Shown here: one piece after another, positions 3,022-41,380 of the stretch
Layout of the letters: the number at the start of each line of letters is the position of its first letter
How positions within the stretch are numbered: the stretch's first letter is position 1
Assembly: GCA_964534305.1 (NCBI GenBank)
Contig: CAZHPR010000002.1
Location: 27,986-91,985 of the forward strand
From: an uncultured Candidatus Saccharibacteria bacterium
Lineage (GTDB): Bacteria; Patescibacteriota; Minisyncoccia; Phycocordibacterales; WO2-35-19
DNA length: 64,000 bases
Direction of reading: 5' to 3'
Notes under the pieces: model-generated
The model's database searches: none
The model's input: the letters and a program-made list of their open reading frames with translations, nothing else
What the model was told of the DNA's origin: nothing
Program-made: the position numbers and the translations under genes

Positions 3022-3089
3022 TATTTGATTTCAATCTCGTGGAGGTATAGAGTTATGGGGTATTAGTATCTAGCCAAAATATATGGAAA
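3022..3089 (+). repeat. 68-bp direct repeat, copy 2 (includes the start codon of the SPFH gene)
   Basis: 67/68 identical to 1180..1247. Confidence 0.9.
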
Positions 3090-13900: not shown

Positions 13901-15670
13901 TTACCTTTGAGCGAATATGTTCCAAACTTTATCAGTTTCTATAAACAATTTTTCTATATTCTGGAATCTTTCGTTTGGAGAAGAAACTGGTTTAAGGGAA
14001 ATATTTTTTATTTTTGATGTTGGTACATAAACGAAGTCTGGAGAAAAGAGGAATATCGCCGGCACATCTTTCTTTATTTCTTCAATGACCTCTCTCCTTT
14101 TTTCTTTTATCAGTTGCTGGTCGCTGGTTGATCTGATCTCTTCGAGCAGTTTGTCTGTCTTTATGTTTGCGTATAGTGCTACATTAAGTCCAGGATCGTT
14201 TCTTTGTGAAGAATGCCAGAATGGATAGAGATCTCCCTCAGATCCGATAACCTCACCAAAAAGTAGGGCGTCATACTTTCTTGGTCTGATGACATTCTGA
14301 TTTAAGTCTGATATTTCAAAAACCTTTATATCTACTACTGCTCCGATTTTCTCCCATTCTTCCTTTAGGATCTCAGCAGACCTTTTTAGCTCGGGTACTT
14401 CTGAAGTTGATAGAGAGAAACGTAGAGAAATTGTATCAGATCCTTTTTTCTTTTCAAGCACACCTTCTTCATTTAAAGACCAGCCGTTATTTTCTAGCAA
14501 ACTCTTTGCTTCGGCAATCGATTCTTCTTGGGTTTTGGTACTTTCATATATGTCTAAAGGTGTTGGTCCATCTATTTTTTTACCGAAGCCCATAAGTATT
14601 TCTTGCACAATCCTCTCTCTGGGAGCTGATATGCTGAGCGCCTGACGAACTTCTTTGTTTAGAAATAGGGCAGATTGGTTTTGGTTTAAGAATAGTCCAA
14701 AAACTCTAGGCAGAGAAGATACTACTGTCTTTTTGCCATTGTCCTCAAGTCTCTTGGCTATATTTTGGGATATATTGCTTATACTGTCTATTTCCCCGTT
14801 CTCAAAAGCTTTTATAAGATCATTCTCGTTGTTAAAAAATTTGAACGTTATATTTTTTATAAGAGGTCGTCCTTGGGTGTATTTGTTGTAGCTTTCTAAC
14901 TTTATATTTACAGGGATACCACCGGAATTTCTTTTCAAATCCTTTATTTTGTATGGTCCAGAACCTACTGGTGTTATATTGAATTCACTAAAGGCAAATT
15001 CTTCGGAAGTTACATTTTGCCAGATATGTTTTGGCAAAATCCCTAGTGTTGCGACTTCACTAAACATGGAATAAGGTTTCCTTAGAATAAATCTTATGTT
15101 TTTTTCATCTATCTTTTCTATTGATACTCCTTCCCAACTAGCTCTCTTCGGACTTTTTATTACAGGATCCAAGACTTTTTCAATTGTAAATATTATATCG
15201 TCAGAAGTTACCGGCTTTCCGTCGTGGAAAAAGGCATCATTTCTTATACGAAAATCATAAACAATACCGTCGCTTGATATAGAAAATGATTCGGCCAGAT
15301 CTCCCTCAAACTCACCCGATTCACTCTGCTTTAGAAGTCCTGAATATATAATTTCTACCAAATCTTTGTCCGTGTCCCCGAGTGAGAGTACTGGGTTTAT
15401 AAACCGGGGACTTCCTACCATCCCTTCAGAAAAGGAGCCTCCAAACTTTGGCATTTCTGTTGTAAACACACCTTGTGTTTGCCAGAGCATCAATATACTT
15501 GTCACAGAAAATATGATTGCAAGGACAAAGAAAGCAACCCTTGTTGATGGCCCCATCGATCCTACCGATCTTTCAATCCAAGAAATTATCTTTATTTTTC
15601 TTGTCCTTATAAAAAGAACATCAAAAAAAGATATTATTTTTTCGTAAGTTTTCATTTTAATTACACACAC
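13901..15670 (-). CDS. ABC-type substrate-binding protein, family 5 (peptide/nickel-binding-like)
   Basis: An N-terminal TM/signal is followed by a large periplasmic domain with VRQALSISAPRERIVQEIL and other SBP_bac_5-like blocks. Confidence 0.55.
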   Translation of the reverse strand: MCVIKMKTYEKIISFFDVLFIRTRKIKIISWIERSVGSMGPSTRVAFFVLAIIFSVTSILMLWQTQGVFTTEMPKFGGSFSEGMVGSPRFINPVLSLGDTDKDLVEIIYSGLLKQSESGEFEGDLAESFSISSDGIVYDFRIRNDAFFHDGKPVTSDDIIFTIEKVLDPVIKSPKRASWEGVSIEKIDEKNIRFILRKPYSMFSEVATLGILPKHIWQNVTSEEFAFSEFNITPVGSGPYKIKDLKRNSGGIPVNIKLESYNKYTQGRPLIKNITFKFFNNENDLIKAFENGEIDSISNISQNIAKRLEDNGKKTVVSSLPRVFGLFLNQNQSALFLNKEVRQALSISAPRERIVQEILMGFGKKIDGPTPLDIYESTKTQEESIAEAKSLLENNGWSLNEEGVLEKKKGSDTISLRFSLSTSEVPELKRSAEILKEEWEKIGAVVDIKVFEISDLNQNVIRPRKYDALLFGEVIGSEGDLYPFWHSSQRNDPGLNVALYANIKTDKLLEEIRSTSDQQLIKEKRREVIEEIKKDVPAIFLFSPDFVYVPTSKIKNISLKPVSSPNERFQNIEKLFIETDKVWNIFAQR

Positions 15671-24097: not shown

Positions 24098-24360
24098 TTA
24101 TAAAAATAATACCCTAAAATTAGTAAATCTAGAAATCAAACAAATTGTAAAGGACAAAATATACTATAATCCGAGATCTATTTTTGTCCTTTATGGTCTT
24201 ATACAATATTTTAAACAAAAAAAAGACATATAAAGGACAAATACTAAAAAACCTTTAAAATAAAGCTTTTTTGACCTATAAAACCTTGACATTCTCATTA
24301 AAATATGAGAAGCTTTGGTCGTCAAGTTTAATAAAAATCATACAGAATAAAACAAATTCT

Positions 24361-27300
24361 ATGGAAAATAATATGAATATGAAAAAAATATTGAATTCCG
24401 CGCTTTCATTAGTGTTTATTTTTGTAATGATTTTTTCTAATTTTGCTGCTTTGCCTGTAAAGGTATCTGCTGAAGATGAAGCCTTTGTCCAAGAAAATAT
24501 GTTTTTTGGAGCACAGGAAGAAAGCAATACTGAAGTCGTTGTTAACAACAATAATACAGAAAGTGCCGGTGATTTGACTACTGATTTATCTGTTGCAGAT
24601 CAGACAAGTGGGGCAGCTGAACAGACAGAGACTATCTCCACAGAAGAAGTGAATAGTAATGTAAACTTTTCTACATCAGAAACAGAGCAAAGATCTTCAC
24701 AAGAAAATTTGTTTTCTACCTCTTCGTCTGGCGCTGATAATAATCAATCACTTCTTTCTATAGATAAGTTTGTTAAAAATGTTACAGATAGTACAGATTA
24801 TTCAAAACAAGTAGACGCAAACTTTGATGAAATAGTTAGATTTAAATTAGTTATCACTAATATTGGAACAGCCAATCTTAGTGATTTGTATGTTTCTGAT
24901 ACTTTGCCAGAGAAACTTTCTTATGTAGATGGTAGTCTATCTGTCCCAGAGCCTGTATATGGAGGCAATATATTTTCTACTCAAGGGCTCAATGTTCACG
25001 ACCTAAATCCTGGACAATCTATCACTATAACTTTTGATGCTAAAGTTTCTGGATCAAGCAGTTTTGGTTTTGGCGAGACCATACTTACCAATAATGCTAG
25101 TTCGGTTGAAATAGGTGGTACGCCTGCAAGTCCAGACACTGATTCTGCATCCGTTAGAGTTTTTAAGCAGCAAGAGACCACTCCGCCTCCAGTTAATGTT
25201 TGTAATGAAATAAAAGATAAAACTGGTTGGTATGGAAAATACTATGACTACAACTCTAGTCATCCAAATATGGAGGAGGTTACTTCTACCTGGAATACCT
25301 ACTATGGGGACCCACTAAGCAATGATGTTGCTTGGACAGCAGATTGGTATGACTCAAAATATTTTAAACTTGGTAGGGTAGATAGCAATCTTATTTTTAA
25401 TAACAACTTTTTCCCTCTAGATTCTGTTTCTGGTGCAGAGATTATAAACGGACACAACTACCACTTCGGTGTTCACTGGAAGGCTGTTGTGACAGCATCA
25501 AGTTCAGCTAATTATGGATTTAGGATTGATTCTGACGATGATGCTTGGGTTTATGTTGATGGTGATTTGATAAAAGATAACAGAGGGGTACACCCAGTGT
25601 TGTCCAAGACCGGTTCAGTTTATTTAACAAAGGGTGATCATATTGTAGATATTTTCTTTGCTGAGAGACACACAACACATTCAAATATGTACTTCAAGTT
25701 TAATGATACATCTCTAGTCATAAAACCTTTTGTTGATGGATGTACTTCAGTAAATACTCCACCGGTTATAACTCTAATCGGTAACAACCCACTATTTCTA
25801 ACAGTTGGTGATATATTCGTTGATCCAGGGGCAACATCTACCGATGCACAAGACGGAGATCTTACATCAAGCATTGTAAAAACTGGAACAGTTAACACCT
25901 CAGCTGTTAGCACAACAACACTAACTTATTCAGTTACTGACTCCGGTGGACTCTCTGCTTCTACTACAAGATTGGTAGTGGTTAAGCCAAAGGTTACTCC
26001 TCCTGGAAATGGTGGCGGCTCTACGAATACTCCACCGGTGATAACTCTAATTGGCAATAATCCTTTGAATATATTTATAGGTAGTACTTTTGTTGACCCG
26101 GGCGCAACAGCAACCGACGCACAAGACGGCAACCTTACTTCAAGCATAATAGTATCTGGTACTGTTGCTACCTCTACACTAGGTACATCAACTCTTACTT
26201 ACTCTGTCTACGATTCAGGCGGACTTGGCGCAACTACTACAAGGGAAGTTGTGGTACTTGCAACAACTACTCCGCCGGTAGTCAAACCACAGTGTTCTGA
26301 TGGTTTGGATAACGATGGAGATGGCAAGATTGATTCTCTAGACCCTGGCTGTCATAGCGATGGGAATGTAGAGAATGGTAGTTCTTTTGATCCAAATGAC
26401 GACAGTGAAGTCGATGTTCCTTCTAATCCTCCTAGCGATGGTGGTGGTAATGGCGGCGGAGGCGGTGGTGGTAGTTCTTTGAGTGGTAGAAGACGAGACG
26501 TAAGCAACCTCTTTGCAAGCGGGGGCGAGATTCTCGGTGCTTCAAGTTGTTCTTATCTTAGGGATTACCTGAGAATTGATTGGGCTAATGATAGAGTAGA
26601 AGTCCTAAAACTTCAGTCTTTCTTGAATATTTATGATGGAGCAAAATTAAACATGACAGGTGTCTTTGATCAAAACACACTTGTTGCTGTAAATAATTTC
26701 CAGAATAAATATGAGAGTGACATACTTACTCCTTGGGGGCACGATGCACCTACTGGATTTGTATACATTCTTACTAAGAAAAAGATAAATGAGATTTATT
26801 GCAACACTACTTATCCTCTAACTAGCGAACAAGCAGAGGAGATAAGAGAATTTAGAAGTTTCCTTGACGGTCTAAAGAGTTCTAACCCTGGCGCAACTTA
26901 TGATGCTGGTGGTATAGGAGGTGATCTAGAGGGAGCAATAAAGGGCGTTGTTGTATTAGATCAAAATGGTGAAGTTGTTGATACTGCTACCACAAGTGTA
27001 GTAGATCTTGTAAAGGACGATTCATTCTCCAGCTCAGTTCTCAGAAACGCTGCAGTTTCTATATTTGCAGTCCCAGATAGTACAACCGAGACACTAAGAT
27101 GTCTTATCGCTTTCCTCATAATACTTCTTGTTATGTATATAGTGTCTGGAATACTTGCAAACGGTACAAGAGAGAGGAGGATAGTATTTTTGATACTTTC
27201 TGTTATTGCGATAATTGTCTCTATAATTATAAACTTCTATTGTGTCGTCGCGCCGCTACTACTTGCACTTATAATCTCTGCGCTTCTCATAATCTTTGAT

Positions 27301-27525
27301 AATAAAAATGGCGATAGCGGAGACTCTAACCTTGAACAACCAAAGAATACCAATTCTTCAGAGGTAGAAGACAAAGCTCCAGAAAATCTACCTGCGCAGA
27401 CAGACTTACCAACGAAAGAAGAAGCTTCTAGTGTTATAGAAATGCCAGGAGAAATAGTTGTTGAGAATGACGAGGAAGAGGTGATAGAACCGTCTACTAT
27501 AGACTCAGAAAAAACAAACAACTAA
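24361..27525 (+). CDS. large secreted/membrane-anchored surface protein with DUF11-like, PA14, 2x DUF5011 (Ig-like) domains, a Gly-rich linker and C-terminal TM helices
   Basis: Signal peptide (MKKILNSALSLVFIFVMIF...AEDE). PA14-like block (DWYDSKYF...YGFRIDSDDDAWVYVDGDLI...TKGDHIVDIFFAERH). Two near-identical ~85-aa repeats (TPPVITLIGNNPL...VDPGAT.TDAQDG.LTSSI...TLTYSV.DSGGL). The start is taken at the internal ATG of MENNMNMKK; the ORF-track frame begins at 24271. Confidence 0.7.
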   Translation: MENNMNMKKILNSALSLVFIFVMIFSNFAALPVKVSAEDEAFVQENMFFGAQEESNTEVVVNNNNTESAGDLTTDLSVADQTSGAAEQTETISTEEVNSNVNFSTSETEQRSSQENLFSTSSSGADNNQSLLSIDKFVKNVTDSTDYSKQVDANFDEIVRFKLVITNIGTANLSDLYVSDTLPEKLSYVDGSLSVPEPVYGGNIFSTQGLNVHDLNPGQSITITFDAKVSGSSSFGFGETILTNNASSVEIGGTPASPDTDSASVRVFKQQETTPPPVNVCNEIKDKTGWYGKYYDYNSSHPNMEEVTSTWNTYYGDPLSNDVAWTADWYDSKYFKLGRVDSNLIFNNNFFPLDSVSGAEIINGHNYHFGVHWKAVVTASSSANYGFRIDSDDDAWVYVDGDLIKDNRGVHPVLSKTGSVYLTKGDHIVDIFFAERHTTHSNMYFKFNDTSLVIKPFVDGCTSVNTPPVITLIGNNPLFLTVGDIFVDPGATSTDAQDGDLTSSIVKTGTVNTSAVSTTTLTYSVTDSGGLSASTTRLVVVKPKVTPPGNGGGSTNTPPVITLIGNNPLNIFIGSTFVDPGATATDAQDGNLTSSIIVSGTVATSTLGTSTLTYSVYDSGGLGATTTREVVVLATTTPPVVKPQCSDGLDNDGDGKIDSLDPGCHSDGNVENGSSFDPNDDSEVDVPSNPPSDGGGNGGGGGGGSSLSGRRRDVSNLFASGGEILGASSCSYLRDYLRIDWANDRVEVLKLQSFLNIYDGAKLNMTGVFDQNTLVAVNNFQNKYESDILTPWGHDAPTGFVYILTKKKINEIYCNTTYPLTSEQAEEIREFRSFLDGLKSSNPGATYDAGGIGGDLEGAIKGVVVLDQNGEVVDTATTSVVDLVKDDSFSSSVLRNAAVSIFAVPDSTTETLRCLIAFLIILLVMYIVSGILANGTRERRIVFLILSVIAIIVSIIINFYCVVAPLLLALIISALLIIFDNKNGDSGDSNLEQPKNTNSSEVEDKAPENLPAQTDLPTKEEASSVIEMPGEIVVENDEEEVIEPSTIDSEKTNN

Positions 27526-29930: not shown

Positions 29931-29939
29931 AATTTGGGC

Positions 29940-30566
29940 ATGAAAAAGACCTATTATTTTGTGATATTTGGCGCTATAATCCTAATTATGTTTTCATTTC
30001 TAAATTTTTTTAAGGACAAGAATGATCGTGATGATGTTTTACCCAAAGGTGATGATAAAAAGGTTTTACTGAACGAAGAGTTTGAACTACAAGAGGGAGG
30101 CAGAGCTTCTATGGGAGGGTTAGATATCGCTTACAGAAGTACAACACTACCTCCAGATTCTTATACTGGAGACAGGGAAGAGTTTACCTATCCTCAAATA
30201 GAGTTGAGTGAGAATGACGATACTCTCAGGTTTCCAATAAATAAAAAATTTCCAACAAGATTATTTCATAAGTATGAAATACAGCTCATAAATATGATCG
30301 TAAACAGCTCAGAAAGAACGGTTGTCCTAAAAGTTGTTACAAAAGAAGTGAACGCCAGAGTGCTAGAAGAAGATGCGGTGAAGATTGCTCTCAAAGAGGC
30401 AGAAGAGAACGGATTAGAAGACGGCGAGGCGATAAATAGGGTACTGGAATATGGTCTTTGGAAAATTGAAGTCTCGTCCCCTTCCGGCGGTGACTTATAT
30501 ATAATGGTAGAAATTGATGCGAACACTGGGGCAGTGAGGAATTCTTACAAAGAAAATAGAGCTTAA
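29940..30566 (+). CDS. PepSY domain membrane-anchored protein
   Basis: N-terminal TM helix and a C-terminal PepSY-like block (EDAVKIALKEAEENG...YGLWKIEV...YIMVEIDANTGAV). Confidence 0.55.
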   Translation: MKKTYYFVIFGAIILIMFSFLNFFKDKNDRDDVLPKGDDKKVLLNEEFELQEGGRASMGGLDIAYRSTTLPPDSYTGDREEFTYPQIELSENDDTLRFPINKKFPTRLFHKYEIQLINMIVNSSERTVVLKVVTKEVNARVLEEDAVKIALKEAEENGLEDGEAINRVLEYGLWKIEVSSPSGGDLYIMVEIDANTGAVRNSYKENRA

Positions 30567-31266: not shown

Positions 31267-31635
31267 TTGTTGATATTTTTTCTAAAGAATAAAATGATCA
31301 ACCAAACTATAGATCGCATAAACAAAAGAGACGAAGAGTATAGGCGCAAGTTAGCCTTCTTCAGTTCTCTCATTGTTTTGCTGTTGGTATTTAGTGTTTG
31401 GTCTATAGAGAGAGATATTTTTGAGCTAAAATCTAAGGGTAATAATCTTTCTCTGTCAAACAGATCTGGTCAGCTTGCTTCTGTAGCAAGCGCCCCTTCA
31501 CCTATAGATAGCTCAAAACAAGCACTTGATTCAGTCTGGTCCGAAGTCGGGAAAAGTTTTAATGACTTCAAAGAGTCACTATCAAACGTGTTTGTGCCCT
31601 TTTTTACAGGAATAGAAGTTTACGAGAGGAAATAA
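31267..31635 (+). CDS. hypothetical membrane-anchored protein
   Basis: ORF with one TM helix and no recognised domain. Confidence 0.35.
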   Translation: MLIFFLKNKMINQTIDRINKRDEEYRRKLAFFSSLIVLLLVFSVWSIERDIFELKSKGNNLSLSNRSGQLASVASAPSPIDSSKQALDSVWSEVGKSFNDFKESLSNVFVPFFTGIEVYERK

Positions 31636-31643
31636 TTGCAAAG

Positions 31644-31772
31644 ACCCTCCCAAATCATTTTTGCTCGTTAGGTCATAAGGATTAAGGCTCTCGCAAAAAT
31701 GATTTGGGAGGGTCTGGTATTTCATAAAAATGTTTTGAGCGACTTTAAGAGGCTCTCGCAAAAATGATTTGG
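31644..31772. repeat. 22-bp perfect inverted repeat (gaccctcccaaatcatttttgc / gcaaaaatgatttgggagggtc) plus a third direct copy of ggctctcgcaaaaatgatttgggag
   Basis: Seen directly. It shares the TTTTGCGAGAG core, in reverse complement, with the 29690-29930 repeats. Confidence 0.75.
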
Positions 31773-31839
31773 GAGATTTTTAAAAATAAACTTTTTGCTT
31801 GAAAAGAGCTTCTGTTTTTGCTATAATAGATAAATAATT

Positions 31840-34302: not shown

Positions 34303-34362
34303 TTCTGTTAGCAATCCACGCTTTTGTAGATAAGCAAAATTTGTTTTTGCTATAATTAAGAC

Positions 34363-35649
34363 ATGTCAACAAAGTTTCAGATAATCCTAACTGGTGTATT
34401 TGCTCTTTTTATTGTTGTGGGAGTTATTGTATTTTCTATGTACAGAGGCTCTCAGGGTCAGGTTAGTAATGTAATTGTTTGGGGTACTATAGAGCAAACC
34501 GATTTCTCTCAGATACTTATGGCGACTGGTCTCGCTCAGAGCAAAGAATACTCAGTCCAGTATGTAAAGAAAGCAGAAGAAACTTTTGATAATGATCTAG
34601 TAGAGGCGATCGCTGCTGGTGAGGGCCCAGACGTCTTCTTTTTGCCTAGTGACAAGATAATAAAAAATATGAACAAGACGTTTATAATACCTTACAACGT
34701 CTTTACCGAGAGGAATTTTAAAGACTCTTTTATAGAGGGTGCCGAAATATTTATGTTGCCGGAGGGTGTTGTTGCGATGCCGTTTGTGGTTGATCCGCTG
34801 GTGATGTATTGGAACAGAGCTATATTCAATGATTCAAAGATAACCGTACCTCCAAAATATTGGGATCAATTCTTCAATCTGGCTTCAGTTATTTCTATAA
34901 AGGATGGTAGTCTCAATATTTTGAGAAGTGCTGTCGCGCTTGGAGAGTTTTCAAACATATCACATGCAAAGGAGATAATCTCTACCCTTGCAATGCAAGC
35001 CGGTACCCCTATAACTTATTGGAGCGGTGGTAAACCAATGAGCAGCTTCTCTCTTAGACTAGACAAACCGACAATACCAGCAGAGGCCGCGGTAAACTTT
35101 TATACAGAATTTTCAAATCCAGCAAAAACATCATACTCCTGGAACAGATCAATAGTCTCTTCTACAAATTATTTTCTGGGAGGAGATCTCGCTATGTATT
35201 TTGGTTTTGCAAGCGAGATTGCTGGTATACAATCAAAAAACCCAAATCTAAACTTTGATGTTGCTCCTATGCCGCTTTCTAGAGAGGGTGGCAATGACTC
35301 TATCTTTGGTAGGTTTTATGGTTTGGCGATAACAAAAACTTCCAAAAATCCTAACGCCGCCTTTGGTGTAGTTTCAATACTTACTTCTACTCAAGGCTCA
35401 AAAGCTTTTGCAGAGATACTAAGGCTTCCTCCAGTGAGACGCGACCTCCTAGCCGAGAGACCTACCGGCGCGTATCTTAGTGTGTTTTATGATAGCGCAA
35501 TAAGGGCTAGAGGATGGCTTGATCCAGATAGGGTAGAGACCAATATTATATTTAGAAATATGATAGAGTCAGTTACAAGCGGAAGATCTAGGGTAAGTGA
35601 GGCGGTTGCAAGGGCAAACAGAGAAATATCAAATCTTTTACAAAAATGA
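34363..35649 (+). CDS. TM-anchored extracellular solute-binding-like protein (SBP_bac_1-like); function uncertain
   Basis: N-terminal TM helix plus a ~400-aa periplasmic-type domain. Its stop overlaps the start of the first small-protein gene (ATGA). Confidence 0.4.
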   Translation: MSTKFQIILTGVFALFIVVGVIVFSMYRGSQGQVSNVIVWGTIEQTDFSQILMATGLAQSKEYSVQYVKKAEETFDNDLVEAIAAGEGPDVFFLPSDKIIKNMNKTFIIPYNVFTERNFKDSFIEGAEIFMLPEGVVAMPFVVDPLVMYWNRAIFNDSKITVPPKYWDQFFNLASVISIKDGSLNILRSAVALGEFSNISHAKEIISTLAMQAGTPITYWSGGKPMSSFSLRLDKPTIPAEAAVNFYTEFSNPAKTSYSWNRSIVSSTNYFLGGDLAMYFGFASEIAGIQSKNPNLNFDVAPMPLSREGGNDSIFGRFYGLAITKTSKNPNAAFGVVSILTSTQGSKAFAEILRLPPVRRDLLAERPTGAYLSVFYDSAIRARGWLDPDRVETNIIFRNMIESVTSGRSRVSEAVARANREISNLLQK

Positions 35650-36050
35650 TATCGGGTTCTAAAAAAAATATATTTAATACATTTGTAACCATACTTTTGG
35701 TGTTTGTCCCTGTCTTGTCATTTGCGGCACCGCTCATCCCTTCTCCTGTTGTCCCTAATTGTCCAAATCCAGAAGGCTGTGGTTTTGTTGAATTTATAGA
35801 GCTTATAAACAATGTTGTTAGTTTGCTAATCGCATTGTCGTTCCCTATCGCTGCGGGAGTTATCGCTTGGGCAGGTTTTAATATGATTATGGATGGTGGT
35901 AATGGGGCAAAGAGGAAGGAGTCTATAGAGATGATAAAGAAAGTTGTTATCGGTTTTGTTATAATGCTCTCAGCTTGGATTGTAGTCTCTACCTTGCTAA
36001 ACGCACTAATATCAAGTCAATTTAAAGACGCGGTACAAATAGTAAAATAA
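35646..36050 (+). CDS. small two-TM membrane protein, paralog 1 (VirB2/TrbC-pilin-like architecture)
   Basis: Signal peptide (VPVLSFAAP). A Cys pair (CPNPEGC). SLLIALSFPIAAGVIAWAGFNMIM, then a basic loop (GGNGAKRKES), then a second TM helix. Confidence 0.6.
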   Translation: MISGSKKNIFNTFVTILLVFVPVLSFAAPLIPSPVVPNCPNPEGCGFVEFIELINNVVSLLIALSFPIAAGVIAWAGFNMIMDGGNGAKRKESIEMIKKVVIGFVIMLSAWIVVSTLLNALISSQFKDAVQIVK

Positions 36051-36054
36051 TAAA

Positions 36055-36477
36055 ATGTTTAATAAAACAAAATTTTCAAAACTTTTAATCTTCACTCTTT
36101 CTCTCTTTATTGCACTTTCTCCTGTTTTTGTTTTTGCAGTCGATGATACCGGTAATAACCCTAAACCAGATGATGTTGGTAAAAATCCAACTCCTGTCTC
36201 TTATCAAATAAAAATAACAAACCCATTCAAATCAAACAGCGTAGAGGGTTTGTTAAAAGCGATAGTCAATGAAATATTGATACCAATAGGAAGCGTTGTT
36301 GCCGCTATTATGGTTATATATGCAGGCTTTTTGTTTGTAACTGCAAGAGGGGACGCTGGCCAGATAAAGACCGCAAAACAAGCCCTGTTGTATGCAGTTA
36401 TAGGAGCAGCGATACTTCTCGGTGCTTGGGTTATTATAAACGCGATAAGTGCGACAATAGACAAACTAAGAGTATAA
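36055..36477 (+). CDS. small two-TM membrane protein, paralog 2 (VirB2/TrbC-pilin-like)
   Basis: Signal peptide (SPVFVFAVDD). ILIPIGSVVAAIMVIYAGFLFVTARGD, a loop, then LLYAVIGAAILLGAWVII. This resembles the P.G...R hairpin of TrbC/VirB2. Confidence 0.6.
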   Translation: MFNKTKFSKLLIFTLSLFIALSPVFVFAVDDTGNNPKPDDVGKNPTPVSYQIKITNPFKSNSVEGLLKAIVNEILIPIGSVVAAIMVIYAGFLFVTARGDAGQIKTAKQALLYAVIGAAILLGAWVIINAISATIDKLRV

Positions 36478-36481
36478 AATT

Positions 36482-36757
36482 ATGGATCTTGCTGGTTTAA
36501 TAAAAATGTTTACAGATATGGGGCTTAGGGTGATACCCTTTATTGGCTCTATCGCCTTTCTTGCATTTGTCTGGGGGATTGCAAGATTTATAAAGTCTAG
36601 TGGTAGTGAGGCAGAGATGAAAAAGAGCAAGGAGTTCCTTATCTGGGGTGTCATTGGGATCTTTGTACTTGCGACAATATGGGGCATTATCTCTTTTATA
36701 AGAGGTGAATTCGGGTTTAGTGGTACCTTCGGTATCCCACAGATAAGAGTAAAATAA
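36482..36757 (+). CDS. small two-TM membrane protein, paralog 3
   Basis: VIPFIGSIAFLAFVWGIARFIKS, the loop SGSEAEMKKSKEF, then LIWGVIGIFVLATIWGIISFIRGE. Confidence 0.6.
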   Translation: MDLAGLIKMFTDMGLRVIPFIGSIAFLAFVWGIARFIKSSGSEAEMKKSKEFLIWGVIGIFVLATIWGIISFIRGEFGFSGTFGIPQIRVK

Positions 36758-36765
36758 AAAATATT

Positions 36766-37041
36766 ATGGGATTAATGAAATTATTAGAAGCGGCACAGGG
36801 GATAGTCACAGGAATACTTATTCCACTTGCCTTTGCCCTTGCTCTCCTGTACTTCTTTTGGGGGGTTGCAAAGTATATAAACTCTGGGGCTGGTGGCGAG
36901 AAGGCGGCAGAGGAGGGTAAGAGAGTTATGATTTGGGGTATAGTAGCCCTCTTTATTGCAACATCAATATGGGGTATAGTTAACTTTATAAAATCAGAAC
37001 TTGGGTTGCCGGGTATACAAAAAGTGAATATCCAAAATTAA
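36766..37041 (+). CDS. small two-TM membrane protein, paralog 4
   Basis: ILIPLAFALALLYFFWGVAKYINS, the loop GAGGEKAAEEGKRVM, then IWGIVALFIATSIWGIVNFIKSE. Confidence 0.6.
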   Translation: MGLMKLLEAAQGIVTGILIPLAFALALLYFFWGVAKYINSGAGGEKAAEEGKRVMIWGIVALFIATSIWGIVNFIKSELGLPGIQKVNIQN

Positions 37042-37060
37042 TTTAATAAATTAAAATAAT

Positions 37061-37486
37061 ATGAAAGAAAAAATAAAATATATAGTAGGTCTTGCACTTT
37101 TATCTCCAGTTTTTGCTTCTGCTCAATTAACACAGACTAGAACTTTGCTGCAAAGTGCAATGAATATAGTTACTCAGATTCTAATACCCCTAGTATTTAC
37201 CCTTGCTCTTTTGTTTTTCTTTTGGGGAATTGCAAAGTATATAAGGTCAGAGGGCACTGGTAAGGAGGAGGGTAAGAAAATAATGATCTGGGGAGTTGTT
37301 GCACTATTCGTAATGTCTACAATTTGGGGGTTAGTTTCTTTTATAAGGGGAGAACTTTTGGGTAATACTAGCGCTCCTATATCTCAACCTGTTCCTACAA
37401 TTGGTGCCGGGGCTGGTGGGGGAGCTTCTATTCCTGGTCAAGATCCTGGTAGTGGTTATATATCAGGGCTGCCTGCAGGATTCTAA
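37061..37486 (+). CDS. small two-TM membrane protein, paralog 5 (signal peptide plus a Gly-rich C-terminal tail)
   Basis: Signal peptide SPVFASAQ. ILIPLVFTLALLFFFWGIAKYIRSEGTGKEEGKKIMIWGVVALFVMSTIWGLVSFIRGE, then a GAGAGGGASIPGQDPGSG tail. Confidence 0.6.
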   Translation: MKEKIKYIVGLALLSPVFASAQLTQTRTLLQSAMNIVTQILIPLVFTLALLFFFWGIAKYIRSEGTGKEEGKKIMIWGVVALFVMSTIWGLVSFIRGELLGNTSAPISQPVPTIGAGAGGGASIPGQDPGSGYISGLPAGF

Positions 37487-37509
37487 AATTATCTGTGGAT
37501 AAGGATTTG

Positions 37510-37538
37510 TTGAAAATAAACTAAAATATTGGTATAAT
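37510..37538 (+). promoter_or_regulatory. sigma70-like internal promoter TTGAAA-17-TATAAT inside the small-protein array
   Basis: It lies in the only ~100-bp gap of the array, upstream of paralog 6. Confidence 0.5.
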
Positions 37539-37585
37539 TAACAGGTAAAAAATTGGTCGTTTAATTATTAATTTTTGCAAAAATT

Positions 37586-37933
37586 ATGAAAAAAATAGCT
37601 ATAATCGGCGTTGCTTCATTGCTTCCAGTGTTTGCTTCAGCTCAGGATCTGAGCAATATCCAGACACTTGTACAATCTATAGGTAATATTATAAACATAG
37701 CAATACCTATAGTCTTTGCTTTGGCAATGCTATTCTTCTTCTGGGGTCTTGCAAAGTACATCCTAGGCTCAGAGCACGACAAGGATGCGGCGAAGAAGAC
37801 TATGATCTGGGGAGTTGTTGCACTATTCGTGATGGCTGCTGTATGGGGCCTTGTAAGCTTCATAAGTAGGGCTGTTGGTGTAAACTCTCAGGGTCCTGGA
37901 TTTACTCCAAGCAGCTTGGTTCCAAGAGGCTAG
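37586..37933 (+). CDS. small two-TM membrane protein, paralog 6
   Basis: Signal peptide LLPVFASAQ. AIPIVFALAMLFFFWGLAKYILGSEHDKDAAKKTMIWGVVALFVMAAVWGLVSFISRA. Confidence 0.6.
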   Translation: MKKIAIIGVASLLPVFASAQDLSNIQTLVQSIGNIINIAIPIVFALAMLFFFWGLAKYILGSEHDKDAAKKTMIWGVVALFVMAAVWGLVSFISRAVGVNSQGPGFTPSSLVPRG

Positions 37934-38013
37934 AGATATTCCAAAATCTATATAGAAAAAGAAAATCCCCATCCTTTTTAGGTGGGGGATTTTCTTTGTG
38001 ATAAAATGCTTTT

Positions 38014-38271
38014 ATGGATGTAAAGATGCTACTTGGTAAAATAGCAGAGCTTATAATAAATCCTATTATAATTTTGGGATTTGTTATTGCGACTATTTAC
38101 TTCTTTTACGGTATTTTTGAGCTTATTTACAAAGCAGACGAGGGGAAGGATGAACACAAAAAGAATTTGATATACGGTATTATCGGTCTCTTTGTAATGT
38201 TTTCTGTTTATGGAATTTTGAATATTGTCTTAGATACTTTTGGTATTACTAACAAAGGTCTCATACCTTAA
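38014..38271 (+). CDS. small two-TM membrane protein, paralog 7 (divergent, no signal peptide)
   Basis: IINPIIILGFVIATIYFFYGIFELIYKADEGKDEHKKNLIYGIIGLFVMFSVYGILNIV follows the same hairpin plan. Confidence 0.5.
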   Translation: MDVKMLLGKIAELIINPIIILGFVIATIYFFYGIFELIYKADEGKDEHKKNLIYGIIGLFVMFSVYGILNIVLDTFGITNKGLIP

Positions 38272-38303
38272 TTTTTTATGAAAAAAGGGGATCTTGCGAT
38301 CCC

Positions 38304-39764
38304 CTAGAAAAATATCACCAGAACCTTGACTGGTTCTTTCTCTCTGGATTTTAGTCTAAACTTGTAGACCTCTTTGGGTTTTTTGGAGTCCTCTTCTCGG
38401 GGTAGTTTTTCCTCAACCGTGTCGTTCCAGAGTACGACGTACTTTTTACCACCTCCATCAAGGGAGTGATTTCCTCCATTGCGAGGTATATTAACCTCTC
38501 TTCCAAACTCATTAACTGGCGCCTCAACGTGTAATACAACTGGGATCCTTGTTGGGCCTAGAGAGGTCATTCCTGCAAGGACTGGTTCCCAGCAGTACCG
38601 CGACGCTTCCCAAGGGTGCTCTTTGTAAGCGCTTGGGTTGGCAAGGTACCTCTCGAGGATGACCTTGCCCAGGCGGTAGTTGTCCTCTTTGGACTTCGCC
38701 GGGTCAATACCCGTCTCCTTGATCAAGTCGGCGTGGATACGCGTGTTGATCTGGAGTGCCCCCGTGTCGTCGGGGTCTTTCTTACCCTTGACGGGGATCT
38801 TCTTCTCCTCGTCTTGCCACTGCTTGCCCCCCGGTTCCCCAGGCGACTCGCAGTTGCCGTACTCGGTGAGCTGGTCGTCGAGACTAGCAGCAATTGGCCG
38901 GTAGGTCGGGGAGTTAGCAGTGCCAGCTCGTGGCTCTGTAAACCCCGGCAAGGGGCGCCAGTAGATGTTGAAGGCGAGAATTACTATTGTTGCAACCATC
39001 ACAAACCTCCTTAGAGATTTTGCAAATGGTTTTATCTCGCTTTTCTCGTTGCGATAGCTGGTGAGTATGCAGACAAACAGTAGTCCCAGGTTGAAAACCC
39101 AAAAAAACTGCTTGTCGCTGTAGTACCAATTCCAGTACCTAGGCTGTACCGAGGTTCCAAAGTAGCCGATAAGGTTTAGAGAAATCAGACCAAGGCAAGA
39201 AAGAACTATCATCGCAGTATCGGGTGCGTACTCCTTGCCGGGTATTTTTTCCAAACTAACCTTGCCCTTTAGTCTGCGAATTAGGAACCAAAGCAAGACG
39301 GATCCGACGATGATTGCGAGTATCCACTTTACCACATCAATGTGAATCAGTGTGGTAGCAATTATTGCAACAACCATCGGTACGAAGAAAATTGCTGTAT
39401 TTGATCTTGGTGGTTTTCCATCACGCTCTGTCATTCTTGGAAAGATAGACAGTAGTAAAATGGTGAACACCAGGGCTTCAGCCCAGACAAGTCCAGTTAT
39501 GGACATCCGGGAGAAGAAGAAAACAAGAATTGGTAGGGGAAGGACCAGTAATACAAAAACCCACCTAGCTGGTTTTATTGATCCAGCTTTTCTCCCCGTG
39601 CTTTTGGCTAGTTTCCCAAGCCAGTTTTTCATTGATTCAGGTGAAATCTCACGAATAGTCCAAAATGAGAAATGGCCTGTCAGTACCAGTGCAAGCACCA
39701 GTGCTAAAATCGAAAGGCTGTATCCAAGGTAGCCAACCGTTTTCCCAAAGAGTGCTTCGAGCAT
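38304..39764 (-). CDS. polytopic membrane protein (~10 TM) with a C-terminal soluble domain that is GC-rich and weakly SLT/lytic-transglycosylase-like
   Basis: An AAAAAGGAGAG RBS precedes the ATG. The N-terminal 320 aa are hydrophobic helices. The C-terminal ~160 aa are encoded by ~58% GC DNA and carry ES...P...GALQI...NYRLG..ILE, with wider spacing than canonical SLT. Confidence 0.5.
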   Translation of the reverse strand: MLEALFGKTVGYLGYSLSILALVLALVLTGHFSFWTIREISPESMKNWLGKLAKSTGRKAGSIKPARWVFVLLVLPLPILVFFFSRMSITGLVWAEALVFTILLLSIFPRMTERDGKPPRSNTAIFFVPMVVAIIATTLIHIDVVKWILAIIVGSVLLWFLIRRLKGKVSLEKIPGKEYAPDTAMIVLSCLGLISLNLIGYFGTSVQPRYWNWYYSDKQFFWVFNLGLLFVCILTSYRNEKSEIKPFAKSLRRFVMVATIVILAFNIYWRPLPGFTEPRAGTANSPTYRPIAASLDDQLTEYGNCESPGEPGGKQWQDEEKKIPVKGKKDPDDTGALQINTRIHADLIKETGIDPAKSKEDNYRLGKVILERYLANPSAYKEHPWEASRYCWEPVLAGMTSLGPTRIPVVLHVEAPVNEFGREVNIPRNGGNHSLDGGGKKYVVLWNDTVEEKLPREEDSKKPKEVYKFRLKSREKEPVKVLVIFF

Positions 39765-39887: not shown

Positions 39888-40946
39888 TTATGGTTTTGGA
39901 GGATCCTGCTGGTTGGCGATGAGTGAAGTATTTGCTCCACCCTCGACAAGGGTTGTGAGTTTTCCACCCACCATCCTTTGTCGTAGAAGGTCTTTGTAAT
40001 TCTCACCCGCCGCATTTTTTTCTGCTGTAATTCTTGAGGACTCACCTTCTCCAAGGAGGATTAATTCCCTCTTTTTCCCCTCAGCTATAGTGATTGTTGC
40101 GTCCCTCTCGGCTTGAGCCCTGGTTCTCTCGACGTCGGCGTCCCTCTCGGCTTCTGCGCGCCTGATATTTGCAGCTTCGTACTCCTTGTTGGGTGTGATT
40201 CCAGATATCGAGATATGCAGGATATCAACACCAACTTGTTCCTCGAGCAACCTTCTGAAGTCGCTCACATTTCCTTGCTTGCCGATAATGTAATCGGTGA
40301 AATCCTTGGATATGCTCTTGCGTGCTTCTCTCACCATGTTTTCATAGGTGAAATCACCACAGAAATCCTTGAGCTCTGCTTGGAGTCTGGGCACGAGCGC
40401 TCCACCGAACCAGTCGCCTCGGTTTTGCATCAAGGCAATCATCGGCCGAACGATCCTCACCCTGAAGGTGAGTTCAAAACCGATCGGAATTAATGGTTGT
40501 TTGGCGTCTGGATCTCTGACTTCACCGCGCATCTCGATTCCTTTGAATGGTAGTGCATACTGCGATTCAAATGGTGTGATGTAGATGATCTCTGGTGCGT
40601 GAGCGATGACGCTATGTGAAGCGTCGCCGTCATCTATTTGGTATTTTGACCAGGAGAACTTATAGCGGTACATTCCCTGGAATGGCGGTACCCCGACAAA
40701 ATGGTAGCCAAGTTGGTCTTGACAAAGTTCGTCAAAAAAACCAATTGGTTGCCGGTCCCCGGTATCCTTGACGAAAACAAAGTCTTCGTTCACGCCCCAA
40801 CCACGGACGTTGTGAATGATCCGGCGAAGTTTTTCACCTCTTACGATTAGGATAAAGCGCTCTTGTGGGCAGGTTGTAAACAGTGAATACTTTGGTAGTA
40901 TCCTTGCTTCTTCCTGCTGGGGAATAGTTTTTGTTGCTGAAGCCAT
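39888..40946 (-). CDS. SPFH/band-7 domain protein (flotillin/stomatin-like), GC-rich
   Basis: AAGGAGG RBS. An SPFH core is followed by an AEAERDADVERTRAQAERDA coiled-coil region. GC is ~50%, against ~37% for the neighbours. Confidence 0.65.
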   Translation of the reverse strand: MASATKTIPQQEEARILPKYSLFTTCPQERFILIVRGEKLRRIIHNVRGWGVNEDFVFVKDTGDRQPIGFFDELCQDQLGYHFVGVPPFQGMYRYKFSWSKYQIDDGDASHSVIAHAPEIIYITPFESQYALPFKGIEMRGEVRDPDAKQPLIPIGFELTFRVRIVRPMIALMQNRGDWFGGALVPRLQAELKDFCGDFTYENMVREARKSISKDFTDYIIGKQGNVSDFRRLLEEQVGVDILHISISGITPNKEYEAANIRRAEAERDADVERTRAQAERDATITIAEGKKRELILLGEGESSRITAEKNAAGENYKDLLRQRMVGGKLTTLVEGGANTSLIANQQDPPKP

Positions 40947-41044
40947 GGGCTCCTCCTTACCTCTCTTATTTTTTCATCGATCTAGTCTACTTACAATTAT
41001 ATCACATTTGCAATATAAACGCAAATAGTATAGAATTGAGGCAG

Positions 41045-41380
41045 GTTTCCTTTCCGGATGGTTACTCCTCACTATAAAAATGGTGGGGGGAGGAAAGTCC
41101 GAACACAGCCCTATTTTTTAGGGAGCAGGTAATGGGTAACACCCATCGGGGTAATCCTAGAGATGCGAACAGAAACGACCCGGTTAAGTCCGGCTGAAAC
41201 GGCTAAATTCTTATCTCTGTGCAAGGCCGTACTCAAGTAGCAATACTTGTTTGTGCCGCTAAAATCTTTAGACTTGTTTTAGATTTTATCTTGAGCCTGT
41301 CGAAAGATGTGAGGTTGTCGGCAACGACAATCCCAGATAAATACCATTTAAACAGAATTCGGCTTATGAGAGAGGAGACC
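41045..41380 (+). ncRNA. rnpB: RNase P RNA (bacterial type A-like)
   Basis: P4 strands GGAGGAAAGTCCGAACAC and ACAGAATTCGGCTTAT. P1 pairing GGTTTCC/GGAGACC. An upstream TTGCAA-17-TAGAAT promoter and a downstream terminator at 41388-41420. Confidence 0.85.

What the first reader, a model, noticed from the sequence alone, without database searches (positions are those of the whole stretch)
35646..38271. Tandem array of seven paralogous small two-TM membrane proteins with VirB2/TrbC-pilin-like architecture
Seven consecutive same-strand genes (85-141 aa), mostly separated by 4-20 bp, encode proteins built to one plan. The plan is an optional Sec signal peptide (paralogs 1, 2, 5, 6), a first hydrophobic helix ending in a (F/Y)FWG(I/V)AKYI-type motif, a 12-17 aa Lys/Glu-rich loop, and a second helix (IWG(V/I)VALFV...WG(L/I)V(S/N)FI). 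Paralog 2 reads ILIPIGSVVAAIMVIYAGFLFVTARGD-loop-LLYAVIGAAILLGAWVI. That resembles the P-x-G...hydrophobic...R hairpin of conjugative T-pilins (VirB2: ILGPFGQSLAVLGIVAIGISWMFGR; TrbC: TGPIGTALAVIAIIVLGLIVLFGRGD). A sevenfold diversified pilin-like set with a shared core and variable N- and C-termini (Cys pair, Pro-rich segment, Gly-rich tail) suggests a surface-exposed, antigenically varied fibre or channel subunit. The array is co-transcribed from upstream (ATGA overlap with the SBP-like gene) and has an internal TTGAAA-17-TATAAT promoter at 37510-37538. No ATPase (VirB4/VirB11/VirD4) is present in the window, so if this is a secretion or pilus system its motor lies elsewhere, or the family does something else entirely.
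Basis: partly seen in the sequence, partly recalled or inferred. Interest (0 to 1): 0.8.

Follow-up and report, generated by a model that had tools for sequence, protein, structure and literature searches.

The report
VirB2-like pilin gene array, Patescibacteria
The seven small membrane-protein genes are real and belong to the T4SS_pilin (VirB2-like) family, but tandem arrays of this kind are already described in the ultra-small Patescibacteria, so this is a new example of a known thing with a few new details.

Summary
Seven same-strand ORFs lie at 35646-38271 and encode proteins of 134, 140, 91, 91, 141, 115 and 85 aa. All seven pass the Pfam gathering threshold for PF18895 (T4SS_pilin), and paralogue 2 also passes PF04956 (TrbC/VirB2). 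The host is a Parcubacteria/Paceibacteria-type Patescibacterium related to Ca. Zambryskibacteria.

Tandem arrays of 2-11 VirB2-like genes in Patescibacteria are already published (PMC12102498). A six-gene array is essential in Southlakia epibionticum (PMC10633639).

Details not found in the papers read:
- The array is an ancient, colinear set. P1-P7 each have orthologues, in the same order, in species whose GyrA is only about 60% identical.
- It always follows GyrA and a tightly coupled, membrane-anchored solute-binding-fold protein.
- It is always followed by a convergent membrane protein with a weak lysozyme-like domain and an SPFH protein.
- It lies more than 10 kb from any T4SS machinery gene.
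- Between near-identical strains only the P4 tail and P5 are replaced.
- P6 has its own near-consensus promoter beside the window's only perfect DnaA box.

Filament formation and a VirB4 motor in this genome remain untested.

The parts
34327..34356 (+). Promoter-like site upstream of the SBP gene (TAGATA-18-TATAAT with TG); candidate operon promoter
   Evidence: 10/12 match; consensus match only
34363..35649 (+). 428-aa membrane-anchored protein with a solute-binding fold (SBP_bac_1/SBP_bac_8). Its stop codon overlaps the P1 start (ATGA). No ABC permease or ATPase gene was found in the window.
   Evidence: PF01547 E 1.5e-16, PF13416 E 4.6e-16; always immediately upstream of the array; 2969 homologues, some named Ca. 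Zambryskibacteria
35646..36050 (+). P1: pilin-like, 134 aa. Signal peptide, then an N-terminal extension with a conserved Cys pair enclosing a variable loop, then the two-helix core.
   Evidence: PF18895 39.9 bits; PF04956 19.9 bits, below cut-off
36055..36477 (+). P2: pilin-like, 140 aa. Signal peptide, Pro/Gly-rich N-terminal extension, and the most TrbC-like core of the seven.
   Evidence: PF18895 33.1 bits; PF04956 29.7 bits against a cut-off of 27.9
36482..36757 (+). P3: pilin-like, 91 aa, no signal peptide in this genome (the L007 orthologue has one)
   Evidence: 33.4 bits
36766..37041 (+). P4: pilin-like, 91 aa, no signal peptide. Its C-terminal tail differs between strains.
   Evidence: 33.0 bits
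37061..37486 (+). P5: pilin-like, 141 aa, signal peptide, long Gly/Pro-rich C-terminal tail. The whole gene is replaced by a 115-aa allele (about 65% identical) in otherwise near-identical strains.
   Evidence: 32.5 bits
37494..37502 (-). Perfect DnaA-box 9-mer (TTATCCACA), the only one in the window, 7 nt upstream of the -35 hexamer of the P6 promoter
   Evidence: similar boxes (at most 1 mismatch) lie 75-105 nt upstream of P6 in 6 of 11 loci, against 0.055 expected per locus.
37510..37538 (+). Near-consensus extended -10 promoter-like site (TTGAAA-17-TGgTATAAT) for P6
   Evidence: the roughly 100-nt gap before P6 is conserved in relatives
37555..37563 (+). Conserved GGTCGTTTA box downstream of the -10, in the presumed P6 leader
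   Evidence: present in window, L007, L008, L012, L016, L017/L006
37586..37933 (+). P6: pilin-like, 115 aa, signal peptide (ASA|Q). Best family score of the seven and identical between strains. Candidate major subunit (inference).
   Evidence: 48.2 bits, E 1.2e-12; 464 homologues; AF2 pLDDT 78.5, helices 22-60 and 63-97
37958..37997 (.). Terminator-like hairpin after P6: 18-nt arms, 4-nt loop, A-run and T-run flanks
   Evidence: I1
38014..38271 (+). P7: pilin-like, 85 aa, no signal peptide
   Evidence: 29.6 bits against 26.6
38286..38305 (.). Terminator-like hairpin between the convergent P7 gene and the 486-aa gene
38304..39764 (-). 486-aa convergent neighbour, conserved in synteny. Polytopic N-terminal membrane region, then a weak lysozyme/SLT-like domain (CES...GGKQ...DDtGALQIN...H), then a C-terminal beta domain. 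Candidate VirB1 analogue (inference).
   Evidence: orthologues and motif; profile against PDB C-type lysozyme/alpha-lactalbumin, E about 0.003; Pfam Lys 8.7e-4 and SLT 2e-3 in single members, all below cut-off; AF2 low confidence in that domain
39888..40946 (-). 352-aa SPFH/Band 7 protein, conserved next to the lysozyme-like gene
   Evidence: PF01145 E 2.7e-10

Best explanation
This is a chromosomal, vertically inherited VirB2-like pilin array of a Parcubacteria/Paceibacteria-type Patescibacterium. It is the same kind of locus as the essential six-gene array of Southlakia epibionticum.

Shown:
- Seven PF18895 paralogues sit in an operon-like block behind a translationally coupled, membrane-anchored protein with a solute-binding fold.
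- P6 has a separate strong promoter-like site.
- Gene order and content are conserved across species.

Inferred mechanism:
- Each protein inserts into the cytoplasmic membrane as a two-helix hairpin. Both termini face outside and the K/E-rich loop faces the cytoplasm.
- P1, P2, P5 and P6 lose a Sec signal peptide.
- The membrane pool is then extracted and polymerised by the monoderm-type (MPF-FATA-like) VirB4/VirB6/PrgI machinery that about 80% of Patescibacteria encode elsewhere in the chromosome.
- The product is a heteromeric pilus or conduit towards the host cell.
- P6 is the abundant major subunit. P1-P5 and P7 are specialised minor subunits whose exposed N- and C-terminal extensions (Cys loop in P1, Pro/Gly stretch in P2, strain-variable tail in P5) contact the host surface.
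- The convergent lysozyme-like membrane protein would open the peptidoglycan, as VirB1 does.
For: Family:
- All seven exceed the PF18895 cut-off and P2 exceeds the PF04956 cut-off.
- All seven give sub-threshold hits to NCBIfam NF045849, a pilin-like conjugal transfer protein of Mycoplasma ICEs.
- The TraM pilin is the top PDB sequence hit of the P6 profile.
- hhalign against VirB2 is in register over both helices.
- The AF2 model is a hairpin.
- No holin or defence-system match was found.

Topology:
- Hydropathy and charge are consistent with the proposed hairpin.
- Signal peptides come and go among orthologues of P3, P4 and P7, as expected if the N-terminus is always exported.

Organism and conservation:
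- Searches place the window in Patescibacteria.
- Colinear P1-P7 orthologues follow GyrA-SBP in L006-L013, L016 and L017.

Co-assembly:
- Many single polypeptides in the 1.84-billion-protein library carry 2-15 fused hairpin repeats, with no start codon or signal peptide at the three junctions inspected.

P6 as major subunit:
- It has its own promoter and a hairpin after the gene.
- It has the best family score and is invariant between strains.

Precedent:
- 441 VirB2 arrays of 2-11 genes with mean identity 25% have been reported, and the Patescibacteria-clade VirB4 is present in 2,407 of about 3,030 assemblies.
- The S. epibionticum array SEML1_0014-0019 is essential and sits beside VirB6, PrgI and VirB4.
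Against: - No T4SS machinery gene lies within about 35 kb upstream or 26 kb downstream in the window, nor within 10 kb in the relatives with precomputed Pfam annotation.
- Whether this genome has a VirB4 could not be checked.
- No T4SS pilus has been seen in any monoderm or Patescibacterium. The reviews call it a possibility only.
- The hhalign probability is low, at 26% for the seven and 1.3% for the P6 family alone.
- The lysozyme-like assignment of the neighbour is below every curated threshold and the AF2 model is poor there.
- The role of the SBP-fold protein is unexplained by this model.
Confidence: 0.55

Rival explanations
1. The hairpins are homologous to VirB2 but are not filament subunits. 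They assemble side by side into a fixed-stoichiometry hetero-oligomer in the cytoplasmic membrane. This would be a channel, stator or platform of the monoderm T4SS or of another envelope machine.
For: - Natural fusions carry 2-15 hairpins in one polypeptide, for example 820 aa with 8 repeats and 1775 aa with 15. Their simplest reading is a multi-pass membrane bundle.
- Seven distinct paralogues are kept in fixed order over deep divergence, as expected for parts of one complex.
- Gram-positive T4SSs are not known to make pili.
- All seven give sub-threshold hits to the Mycoplasma ICE pilin-like family.
Against: - The proteins belong to a family named and modelled on pilins.
- The exported N- and C-terminal extensions are long, variable and low-complexity (Cys loop, Pro/Gly tails) and vary between strains. 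This fits surface exposure better than a buried complex.
- Fusions are also compatible with neighbouring subunits in a filament, because both termini lie on the same face.
Confidence: 0.25
2. The module is independent of any T4SS ATPase. The anchored SBP-fold protein, the seven hairpins, the lysozyme-like membrane protein and the SPFH protein form a lineage-specific envelope device, for example a ligand- or glycan-sensing uptake or adhesion structure. The pilin-like proteins would have been co-opted into it.
For: - The SBP gene is tightly coupled to P1 in every locus (overlap, or a gap of at most 9 nt) and is better conserved than the pilins.
- Its dN/dS is 0.04.
- No ABC permease or ATPase and no T4SS gene was found in the ORFs scanned.
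- Synteny of all four components is conserved.
Against: - In S. epibionticum, and in 1,135 of 1,948 assemblies, the pilin genes sit next to virB4.
- In L014, a more distant array lies near a PrgI-family gene.
- No known system polymerises or gates VirB2-like hairpins without VirB4.
- Operon membership of an SBP can be historical rather than functional.
Confidence: 0.1
3. One reading: the seven genes are alternative, antigenically varied versions of one surface subunit, expressed or exchanged to evade hosts or phages, as proposed for the VirB2 paralogues of Bartonella and Anaplasma.
For: - The P4 tail and P5 form a replaced block (55-75% nt identity against a 98-99% background). P5 tails range from absent to 45 aa among strains and species.
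- P1 and P2 show higher dN/dS (0.36 and 0.22) than GyrA or the SBP (0.02 and 0.04), though from only 5-6 substitutions each.
- PMC12102498 raises this idea.
Against: - One-to-one colinear orthology shows the paralogues predate speciation, and each is under its own constraint.
- P3, P6 and P7 have no amino-acid change between strains.
- DNA identity among paralogues is at most 78% over at most 106 nt. There are no long repeats, invertible segments or silent cassettes.
- The genes are co-transcribed rather than alternatively expressed.
Confidence: 0.1

Closest known systems
VirB2-like pilin arrays of Patescibacteria (S. epibionticum SEML1_0014-0019; N. lyticus TM7x 'Sec-secreted array'; 441 arrays in PMC12102498)
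   Same: - Tandem same-strand PF18895/PF04956 genes of about 85-185 aa.
- Low identity between paralogues (about 25%).
- A mixture of genes with and without signal peptides.
- Chromosomal location in an ultra-small monoderm.
   Different: - Here the array is more than 10 kb from any VirB4, VirB6 or PrgI gene. It is flanked by GyrA and an SBP-fold gene upstream, and by a lysozyme-like gene and an SPFH gene downstream.
- The published arrays were reported mainly in Microgenomatia and Saccharimonadia, and the S. epibionticum array lies inside the T4SS cluster.
- The colinear one-to-one orthology, the P5 allele replacement and the P6 promoter with its DnaA box are not mentioned in the papers read.
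Conjugative and T-pilins of diderm T4SSs (A. tumefaciens VirB2, RP4 TrbC, pKM101 TraM, F TraA)
   Same: - Signal peptide with an A-x-A|Q site.
- A two-helix hydrophobic hairpin with a short basic loop.
- P2 passes the PF04956 threshold.
- The weak profile matches are in register.
   Different: - Sequence similarity is marginal for six of the seven.
- There are seven co-encoded paralogues instead of one.
- The host is a monoderm.
- No adjacent virB1-virB3-virB4 genes are present, unlike the plasmid loci fetched.
- Cyclisation and lipid-bound filament assembly are untested.
Tandem virB2 paralogues of Bartonella and Anaplasma phagocytophilum
   Same: Several divergent VirB2 copies side by side, proposed to diversify surface interactions (cited in PMC12102498).
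   Different: Those are diderm, host-cell-targeting T4SSs whose paralogues are thought to serve antigenic variation. Here the copies are ancient, ordered and mostly invariant between strains.
Mbov_0395/MMCAP2_0565 pilin-like conjugal transfer protein of Mycoplasma ICEs (NCBIfam NF045849)
   Same: A small two-helix pilin-like membrane protein of a monoderm MPF-FATA-type system. All seven paralogues hit the model (E 2.6e-7 to 1.8e-3).
   Different: All scores (17.9-30.2 bits) are below the 40-bit cut-off, so the seven are not members. That protein is a single-copy ICE gene, not a chromosomal array.

Membership tests
Pfam PF18895 T4SS_pilin | Whole-protein HMM score at or above the gathering cut-off (26.6 bits) | tested here: met
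   39.9, 33.1, 33.4, 33.0, 32.5, 48.2 and 29.6 bits for P1-P7. The precomputed annotation of the same genes in Logan contigs agrees.
Pfam PF04956 TrbC/VIRB2 pilin | Whole-protein HMM score at or above the gathering cut-off (27.9 bits) | tested here: inconclusive
   P2 scores 29.7 bits (met), P1 scores 19.9 bits (not met), and P3-P7 have no hit at E 1 or below. hhalign of the seven against eight VirB2/TrbC proteins gives E 7e-4 and probability 26%.
VirB2-type T4SS pilin (functional class) | Two hydrophobic helices joined by a short charged loop, both termini on the same (outer) side, preceded by a cleavable signal peptide | tested here: inconclusive
   The hairpin and K/R-rich loop are present in all seven. 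By heuristic only, a signal peptide is present in P1, P2, P5 and P6 and absent in P3, P4 and P7. No dedicated signal-peptide or topology predictor was available.
VirB2-type T4SS pilin (functional class) | Encoded with, or in the same genome as, a VirB4 ATPase and VirB6/VirB3 (PrgI) channel components | tested here: not met
   For the window: no such Pfam hit in about 57 ORFs scanned, and none in the 10-kb flanks of L016 and L017. The rest of the genome could not be reached, so genome-wide presence is untested.
VirB2-type T4SS pilin (functional class) | Polymerises into an extracellular, lipid-containing helical filament | not testable with these tools
   No multimer prediction or experiment was available. 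Fold searches of the monomer are non-diagnostic.
Patescibacteria VirB2 array (as defined in PMC12102498) | Two or more PF18895/PF04956 genes in tandem (or separated by one gene) in a Patescibacteria genome, with low identity between copies | tested here: met
   Seven in tandem. Identity to P1 is 18-25% and the maximum between any pair is 62%. Patescibacteria origin is supported.
NCBIfam NF045849 Mbov_0395 pilin-like conjugal transfer protein | Score at or above the 40-bit curated cut-off | tested here: not met
   17.9-30.2 bits
VirB1 / SLT lytic transglycosylase (for the 486-aa neighbour) | Significant match to a lysozyme-like or SLT domain with the catalytic Glu-Ser and GxxQ motifs | tested here: inconclusive
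   The motifs (C/A)ES and G(A/I/F)(L/F/M)QI(N) are conserved in most orthologues that retain the domain. The profile against PDB hits only lysozymes and alpha-lactalbumins, at E about 0.003. Single members hit Pfam Lys at 8.7e-4 and SLT at 2e-3, below the cut-offs. The AF2 pLDDT is below 50 in this domain.

The most novel reading that the evidence does not exclude
In this Parcubacteria lineage the pilin-like hairpins have left the T4SS cluster. Together with the anchored SBP-fold protein, the lysozyme-like membrane protein and the SPFH protein, they would form a separate host-contact or uptake organelle. Its major subunit gene (P6) would be switched by DnaA, tying construction of the structure to the replication and cell cycle of an obligate epibiont.
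Probability: 0.08. Interest if true: 0.7.

Novelty: new member of a known kind. Interest (0 to 1): 0.3.

Why it matters
The T4SS and its pilin array are among the few envelope systems shown to be essential for an epibiotic Patescibacterium, and what they do is unknown. This locus adds comparative constraints that any model must satisfy:
- The paralogues form a fixed, ordered, anciently diverged set, which points to co-assembly rather than alternative variants.
- One position (P5, with the P4 tail) is exchanged between strains.
- One gene (P6) has its own regulated promoter.
- A solute-binding-fold protein is an obligate operon partner in this lineage.

These are leads for experiments, not a new kind of system.

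Tried and rejected
- **hhalign of the P6 family alone against VirB2.** It aligned only the signal-peptide cleavage region (probability 1.3%).
- **Reaching the rest of the 104-kb source contig or genome to look for VirB4.** One look-up gave a 1.5-kb contig and the other found nothing. The exact-cluster look-up gave no names.
- **AF2 of the C-terminal half of the 486-aa neighbour.** The lysozyme-like part has low confidence. Foldseek of that model hit only cupin-like or jelly-roll beta domains at E about 3e-3 with low TM-scores, so it is uninformative.
- **Holin or phage origin.** PHROGs gave two unknown-function families for P1 only. Rejected.
- **Defence system.** PADLOC gave no hits. Rejected.
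- **Phase variation or gene conversion.** No long repeats or invertible segments were found. Rejected.
- **Non-coding RNA in the array.** Rfam found only 10 tRNAs in the window, all elsewhere.

Full report

Yes. Seven + strand ORFs occupy 35646-38271 and encode proteins of 134, 140, 91, 91, 141, 115 and 85 aa. The first starts with an ATGA overlap on the stop of a 428-aa upstream gene. The next four follow after 4, 4, 8 and 19 nt. The last two follow after 99 and 80 nt.

Every protein has two strongly hydrophobic stretches separated by a 14-22 aa Lys/Glu-rich loop. P1, P2, P5 and P6 also have an N-terminal Sec-type signal peptide, with an ASA|Q site in P5 and P6. A profile of the seven finds no further copy among all 359 ORFs of 40 aa or more in the window.

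**2. What are they?**

All seven exceed the Pfam gathering threshold of PF18895 (T4SS_pilin), scoring 29.6-48.2 bits against 26.6, with E from 7e-7 to 1e-12. P2 also exceeds the threshold of PF04956 (TrbC/VIRB2), scoring 29.7 against 27.9.

Supporting but weaker evidence:
- NCBIfam gives only sub-threshold hits, all to the Mycoplasma ICE pilin-like conjugal transfer family NF045849.
- A profile of 61 P6 orthologues has the pKM101 TraM pilin (8cw4) as its best PDB sequence hit, at E 0.096.
- hhalign of the seven paralogues against eight annotated VirB2/TrbC proteins fetched from plasmids aligns both helices in register. The statistics are weak (E 7e-4, probability 26%).
- AlphaFold2 models P6 as a signal-peptide helix plus a long helical hairpin, residues 22-60 and 63-97 (pLDDT 78.5).

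Fold searches cannot discriminate such a simple fold. PHROGs and PADLOC give no competing assignment. The "VirB2/TrbC-like" reading therefore passes the family test. It rests on sequence profiles, not on structure.

**3. Whose genome, and is this known?**

The window is chromosomal. It carries GyrA, CTP synthase, GroEL, LeuRS-type synthetase, ClpB, a short IF-2, MurC/MurD, TopA, RelA, ParB, DprA and 10 tRNAs. Homologues of P6 and of the upstream protein come from MAGs labelled Patescibacteria, Ca. Paceibacterota and Ca. Zambryskibacteria, which belong to the Parcubacteria group.

The literature already covers this kind of locus:
- Quinonero-Coronel et al. 2025 used exactly these two Pfam models. 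They report 441 "VirB2 arrays" of 2-11 genes in 383 Patescibacteria assemblies, with mean identity 25% (PMC12102498).
- Wang et al. 2023 showed that the six-gene array SEML1_0014-0019 of Southlakia epibionticum is essential and lies inside the T4SS cluster (PMC10633639).
- A 2025 review highlights the possibility of a T4SS pilus in a monoderm (PMC12857230).

The finding is therefore a new member of a known kind.

**4. What this locus adds**

*(a) Deep, colinear conservation.*
- Ten further loci from other species carry the same block: Lactamase_B_3, a small gene, GyrA, the SBP-fold gene, then the array. GyrA identity in these loci falls to about 60%.
- The array members are one-to-one orthologues of P1...P7 in the same order.
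- Orthologue identity is 41-70% in the closer species (L006-L008, L012, L016, L017) and 30-55% in the most distant loci. Paralogue identity is mostly 27-54%, with P4/P5 at 62%.
- The paralogues are thus old and individually constrained.
- Two subgroups exist. P1 and P2 are TrbC-like with long exported N-terminal extensions. P1 always has a Cys pair around a variable loop, and P2 always has a Pro/Gly-rich stretch. P3-P7 share the FFWG..AKYI and IWGV motifs.
- Signal peptides appear and disappear among orthologues of P3, P4 and P7. This fits a constant N-out topology.

*(b) A constant partner.* The 428-aa upstream protein has an N-terminal membrane anchor and an SBP_bac_1/8 fold. It is coupled to P1 by an overlap or a gap of at most 9 nt in every locus. 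It is under strong purifying selection, with dN/dS 0.04. No ABC permease or ATPase was found in the window.

*(c) Conserved convergent neighbours.* Downstream lies a fast-evolving polytopic membrane protein, 486 aa here. Its soluble part carries conserved (C/A)ES and G-x-x-Q-I-N motifs. As a profile it hits only C-type lysozymes and alpha-lactalbumins in the PDB, at E about 0.003, and single members hit Pfam Lys or SLT. All of these are below curated thresholds. An SPFH/Band 7 protein follows it. I treat the lysozyme-like protein as a candidate VirB1 analogue, not an established one. Its AF2 model is poor in that domain.

*(d) Strain-level variation is focal.*
- Against a near-identical strain (L001; background 98-100% nt identity), the segment 37000-37500 is only 55-75% identical. 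This segment covers the P4 C-terminal tail and all of P5.
- P5 switches between a 141-aa form with a Gly/Pro-rich tail and a 115-aa form.
- P3, P6 and P7 show no amino-acid change. P1 and P2 have dN/dS of 0.36 and 0.22, based on few substitutions.
- No repeats or invertible elements that could drive programmed variation are present.

*(e) P6 stands apart.*
- A gap of about 100 nt precedes P6 in all relatives.
- In the window this gap holds the best promoter-like site of the region, TTGAAA-17-TGgTATAAT.
- It also holds the only perfect DnaA box of the 64-kb window, at 37494-37502, 7 nt upstream of the -35 hexamer.
- DnaA-box-like 9-mers sit 75-105 nt upstream of P6 in 6 of 11 loci, where 0.055 per locus is expected.
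- A conserved GGTCGTTTA box follows the -10.
- A strong hairpin follows P6.
- Together with the best family score and invariance between strains, this suggests P6 is the abundant major subunit. This is an inference.

*(f) Natural fusions.* The profile of the seven hits 54,575 cluster representatives in the 1.84-billion-protein library. Many top hits are single polypeptides with 2-15 hairpin repeats. The junctions I inspected in three of them lack start codons and signal peptides, so they appear to be real fusions. This argues that different hairpins work together in one assembly. It is compatible with either a filament or a membrane bundle.

**5. Mechanism and its limits**

The best-supported model runs as follows. 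The hairpins insert N-out/C-out. Four of them are processed by signal peptidase. All are then assembled by the monoderm-type VirB4/VirB6/PrgI machinery, which about 80% of Patescibacteria encode, often near dnaA. The product is a heteromeric pilus or conduit to the host. P6 would be the major subunit, and the exported, variable termini of the others would face the host.

The membership, the architecture and the conservation are shown. Everything about assembly is inferred. Three weak points remain:
- No T4SS gene lies in the 64-kb window or in the 10-kb flanks of the relatives with precomputed Pfam annotation (L016, L017).
- I could not reach the rest of the genome.
- No T4SS pilus has ever been observed in a monoderm.

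The main rival is a membrane-embedded hetero-oligomer, and the fusion proteins favour it. A T4SS-independent SBP-linked module and a true antigenic-variation set are less likely. The evidence for each is listed under the rival explanations.

**6. Verdict**

The family assignment is supported. The "antigenically varied" and novelty claims are not. Interest is modest at 0.3. The SBP coupling, the fixed seven-member order, the P5 allele swap and the DnaA-box promoter are useful leads for groups working on the Patescibacteria T4SS.

Noticed in passing
window 37494-37563: The only perfect DnaA box (TTATCCACA) in the window lies 7 nt upstream of the -35 hexamer of the P6 promoter. DnaA-box-like 9-mers occur at the equivalent place in 6 of 11 related loci, on either strand. 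A conserved GGTCGTTTA box follows the -10.
   Followed up: partly
window 37000-37500, compared with L001 7215-7620: An allelic replacement block covers the P4 tail and all of P5. It is 55-75% nt identical between strains that are otherwise 98-100% identical. P5 is 141 aa with a Gly/Pro-rich tail here and in L005, and 115 aa in L001-L003.
   Followed up: yes
P0250, P0252, P0272, P0361: Single polypeptides with 2-15 tandem pilin-like hairpin repeats, up to 1775 aa. The junctions of the three sequences read lack Met and signal peptides, so they look like genuine fusions. Their genomic context was not examined.
   Followed up: partly
window 38304-39764 (-) and 39888-40946 (-): A conserved convergent pair sits downstream of the array. 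The first is a polytopic membrane protein with a weak lysozyme/SLT-like domain and a C-terminal beta domain. The second is an SPFH/Band 7 protein. A second SPFH gene lies at 3083-3829.
   Followed up: partly
window 35646-36050 (P1) and its orthologues in L007-L013 and L016: The exported N-terminal extension of P1 always carries two Cys residues that bracket a loop of very variable length and sequence (6 to about 16 residues), followed by a conserved G(Y/F)xD(F/L) motif. A DsbA-like thioredoxin is encoded at 8585-9223.
   Followed up: partly
window 29934-30566: A PepSY-domain protein is only 51% identical between the window and strain L001, while neighbouring genes are 98-100% identical. This is a second strain-variable gene. 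Short indel-rich intergenic stretches lie at about 31600-31800 and 41000-41200.
   Followed up: no
window 24271-27525: A 1084-aa surface protein with PA14, DUF11 and bacterial Ig-like domains. It is a possible adhesin of an epibiont.
   Followed up: no
window 13901-15670 (-) and 34363-35649 (+): Two solute-binding proteins (SBP_bac_5 and SBP_bac_1/8) are present, but no ABC permease or ATPase gene was detected in the window ORFs scanned.
   Followed up: no
window 57882-58913, 60348-62531, 63318-63944: ParB, topoisomerase I and DprA cluster near the right end of the window. ParB suggests the replication origin may be near. Published T4SS clusters of Paceibacteria often lie near dnaA. The region beyond the window could not be fetched.
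   Followed up: no
L014 3451-7929 and 15882-16946: A distant array in a MAG labelled Gammaproteobacteria, probably mis-binned. It includes a 484-aa and a 226-aa protein that each end in a PF18895 domain, and it lies near a PrgI-family (VirB3-like) gene.
   Followed up: partly
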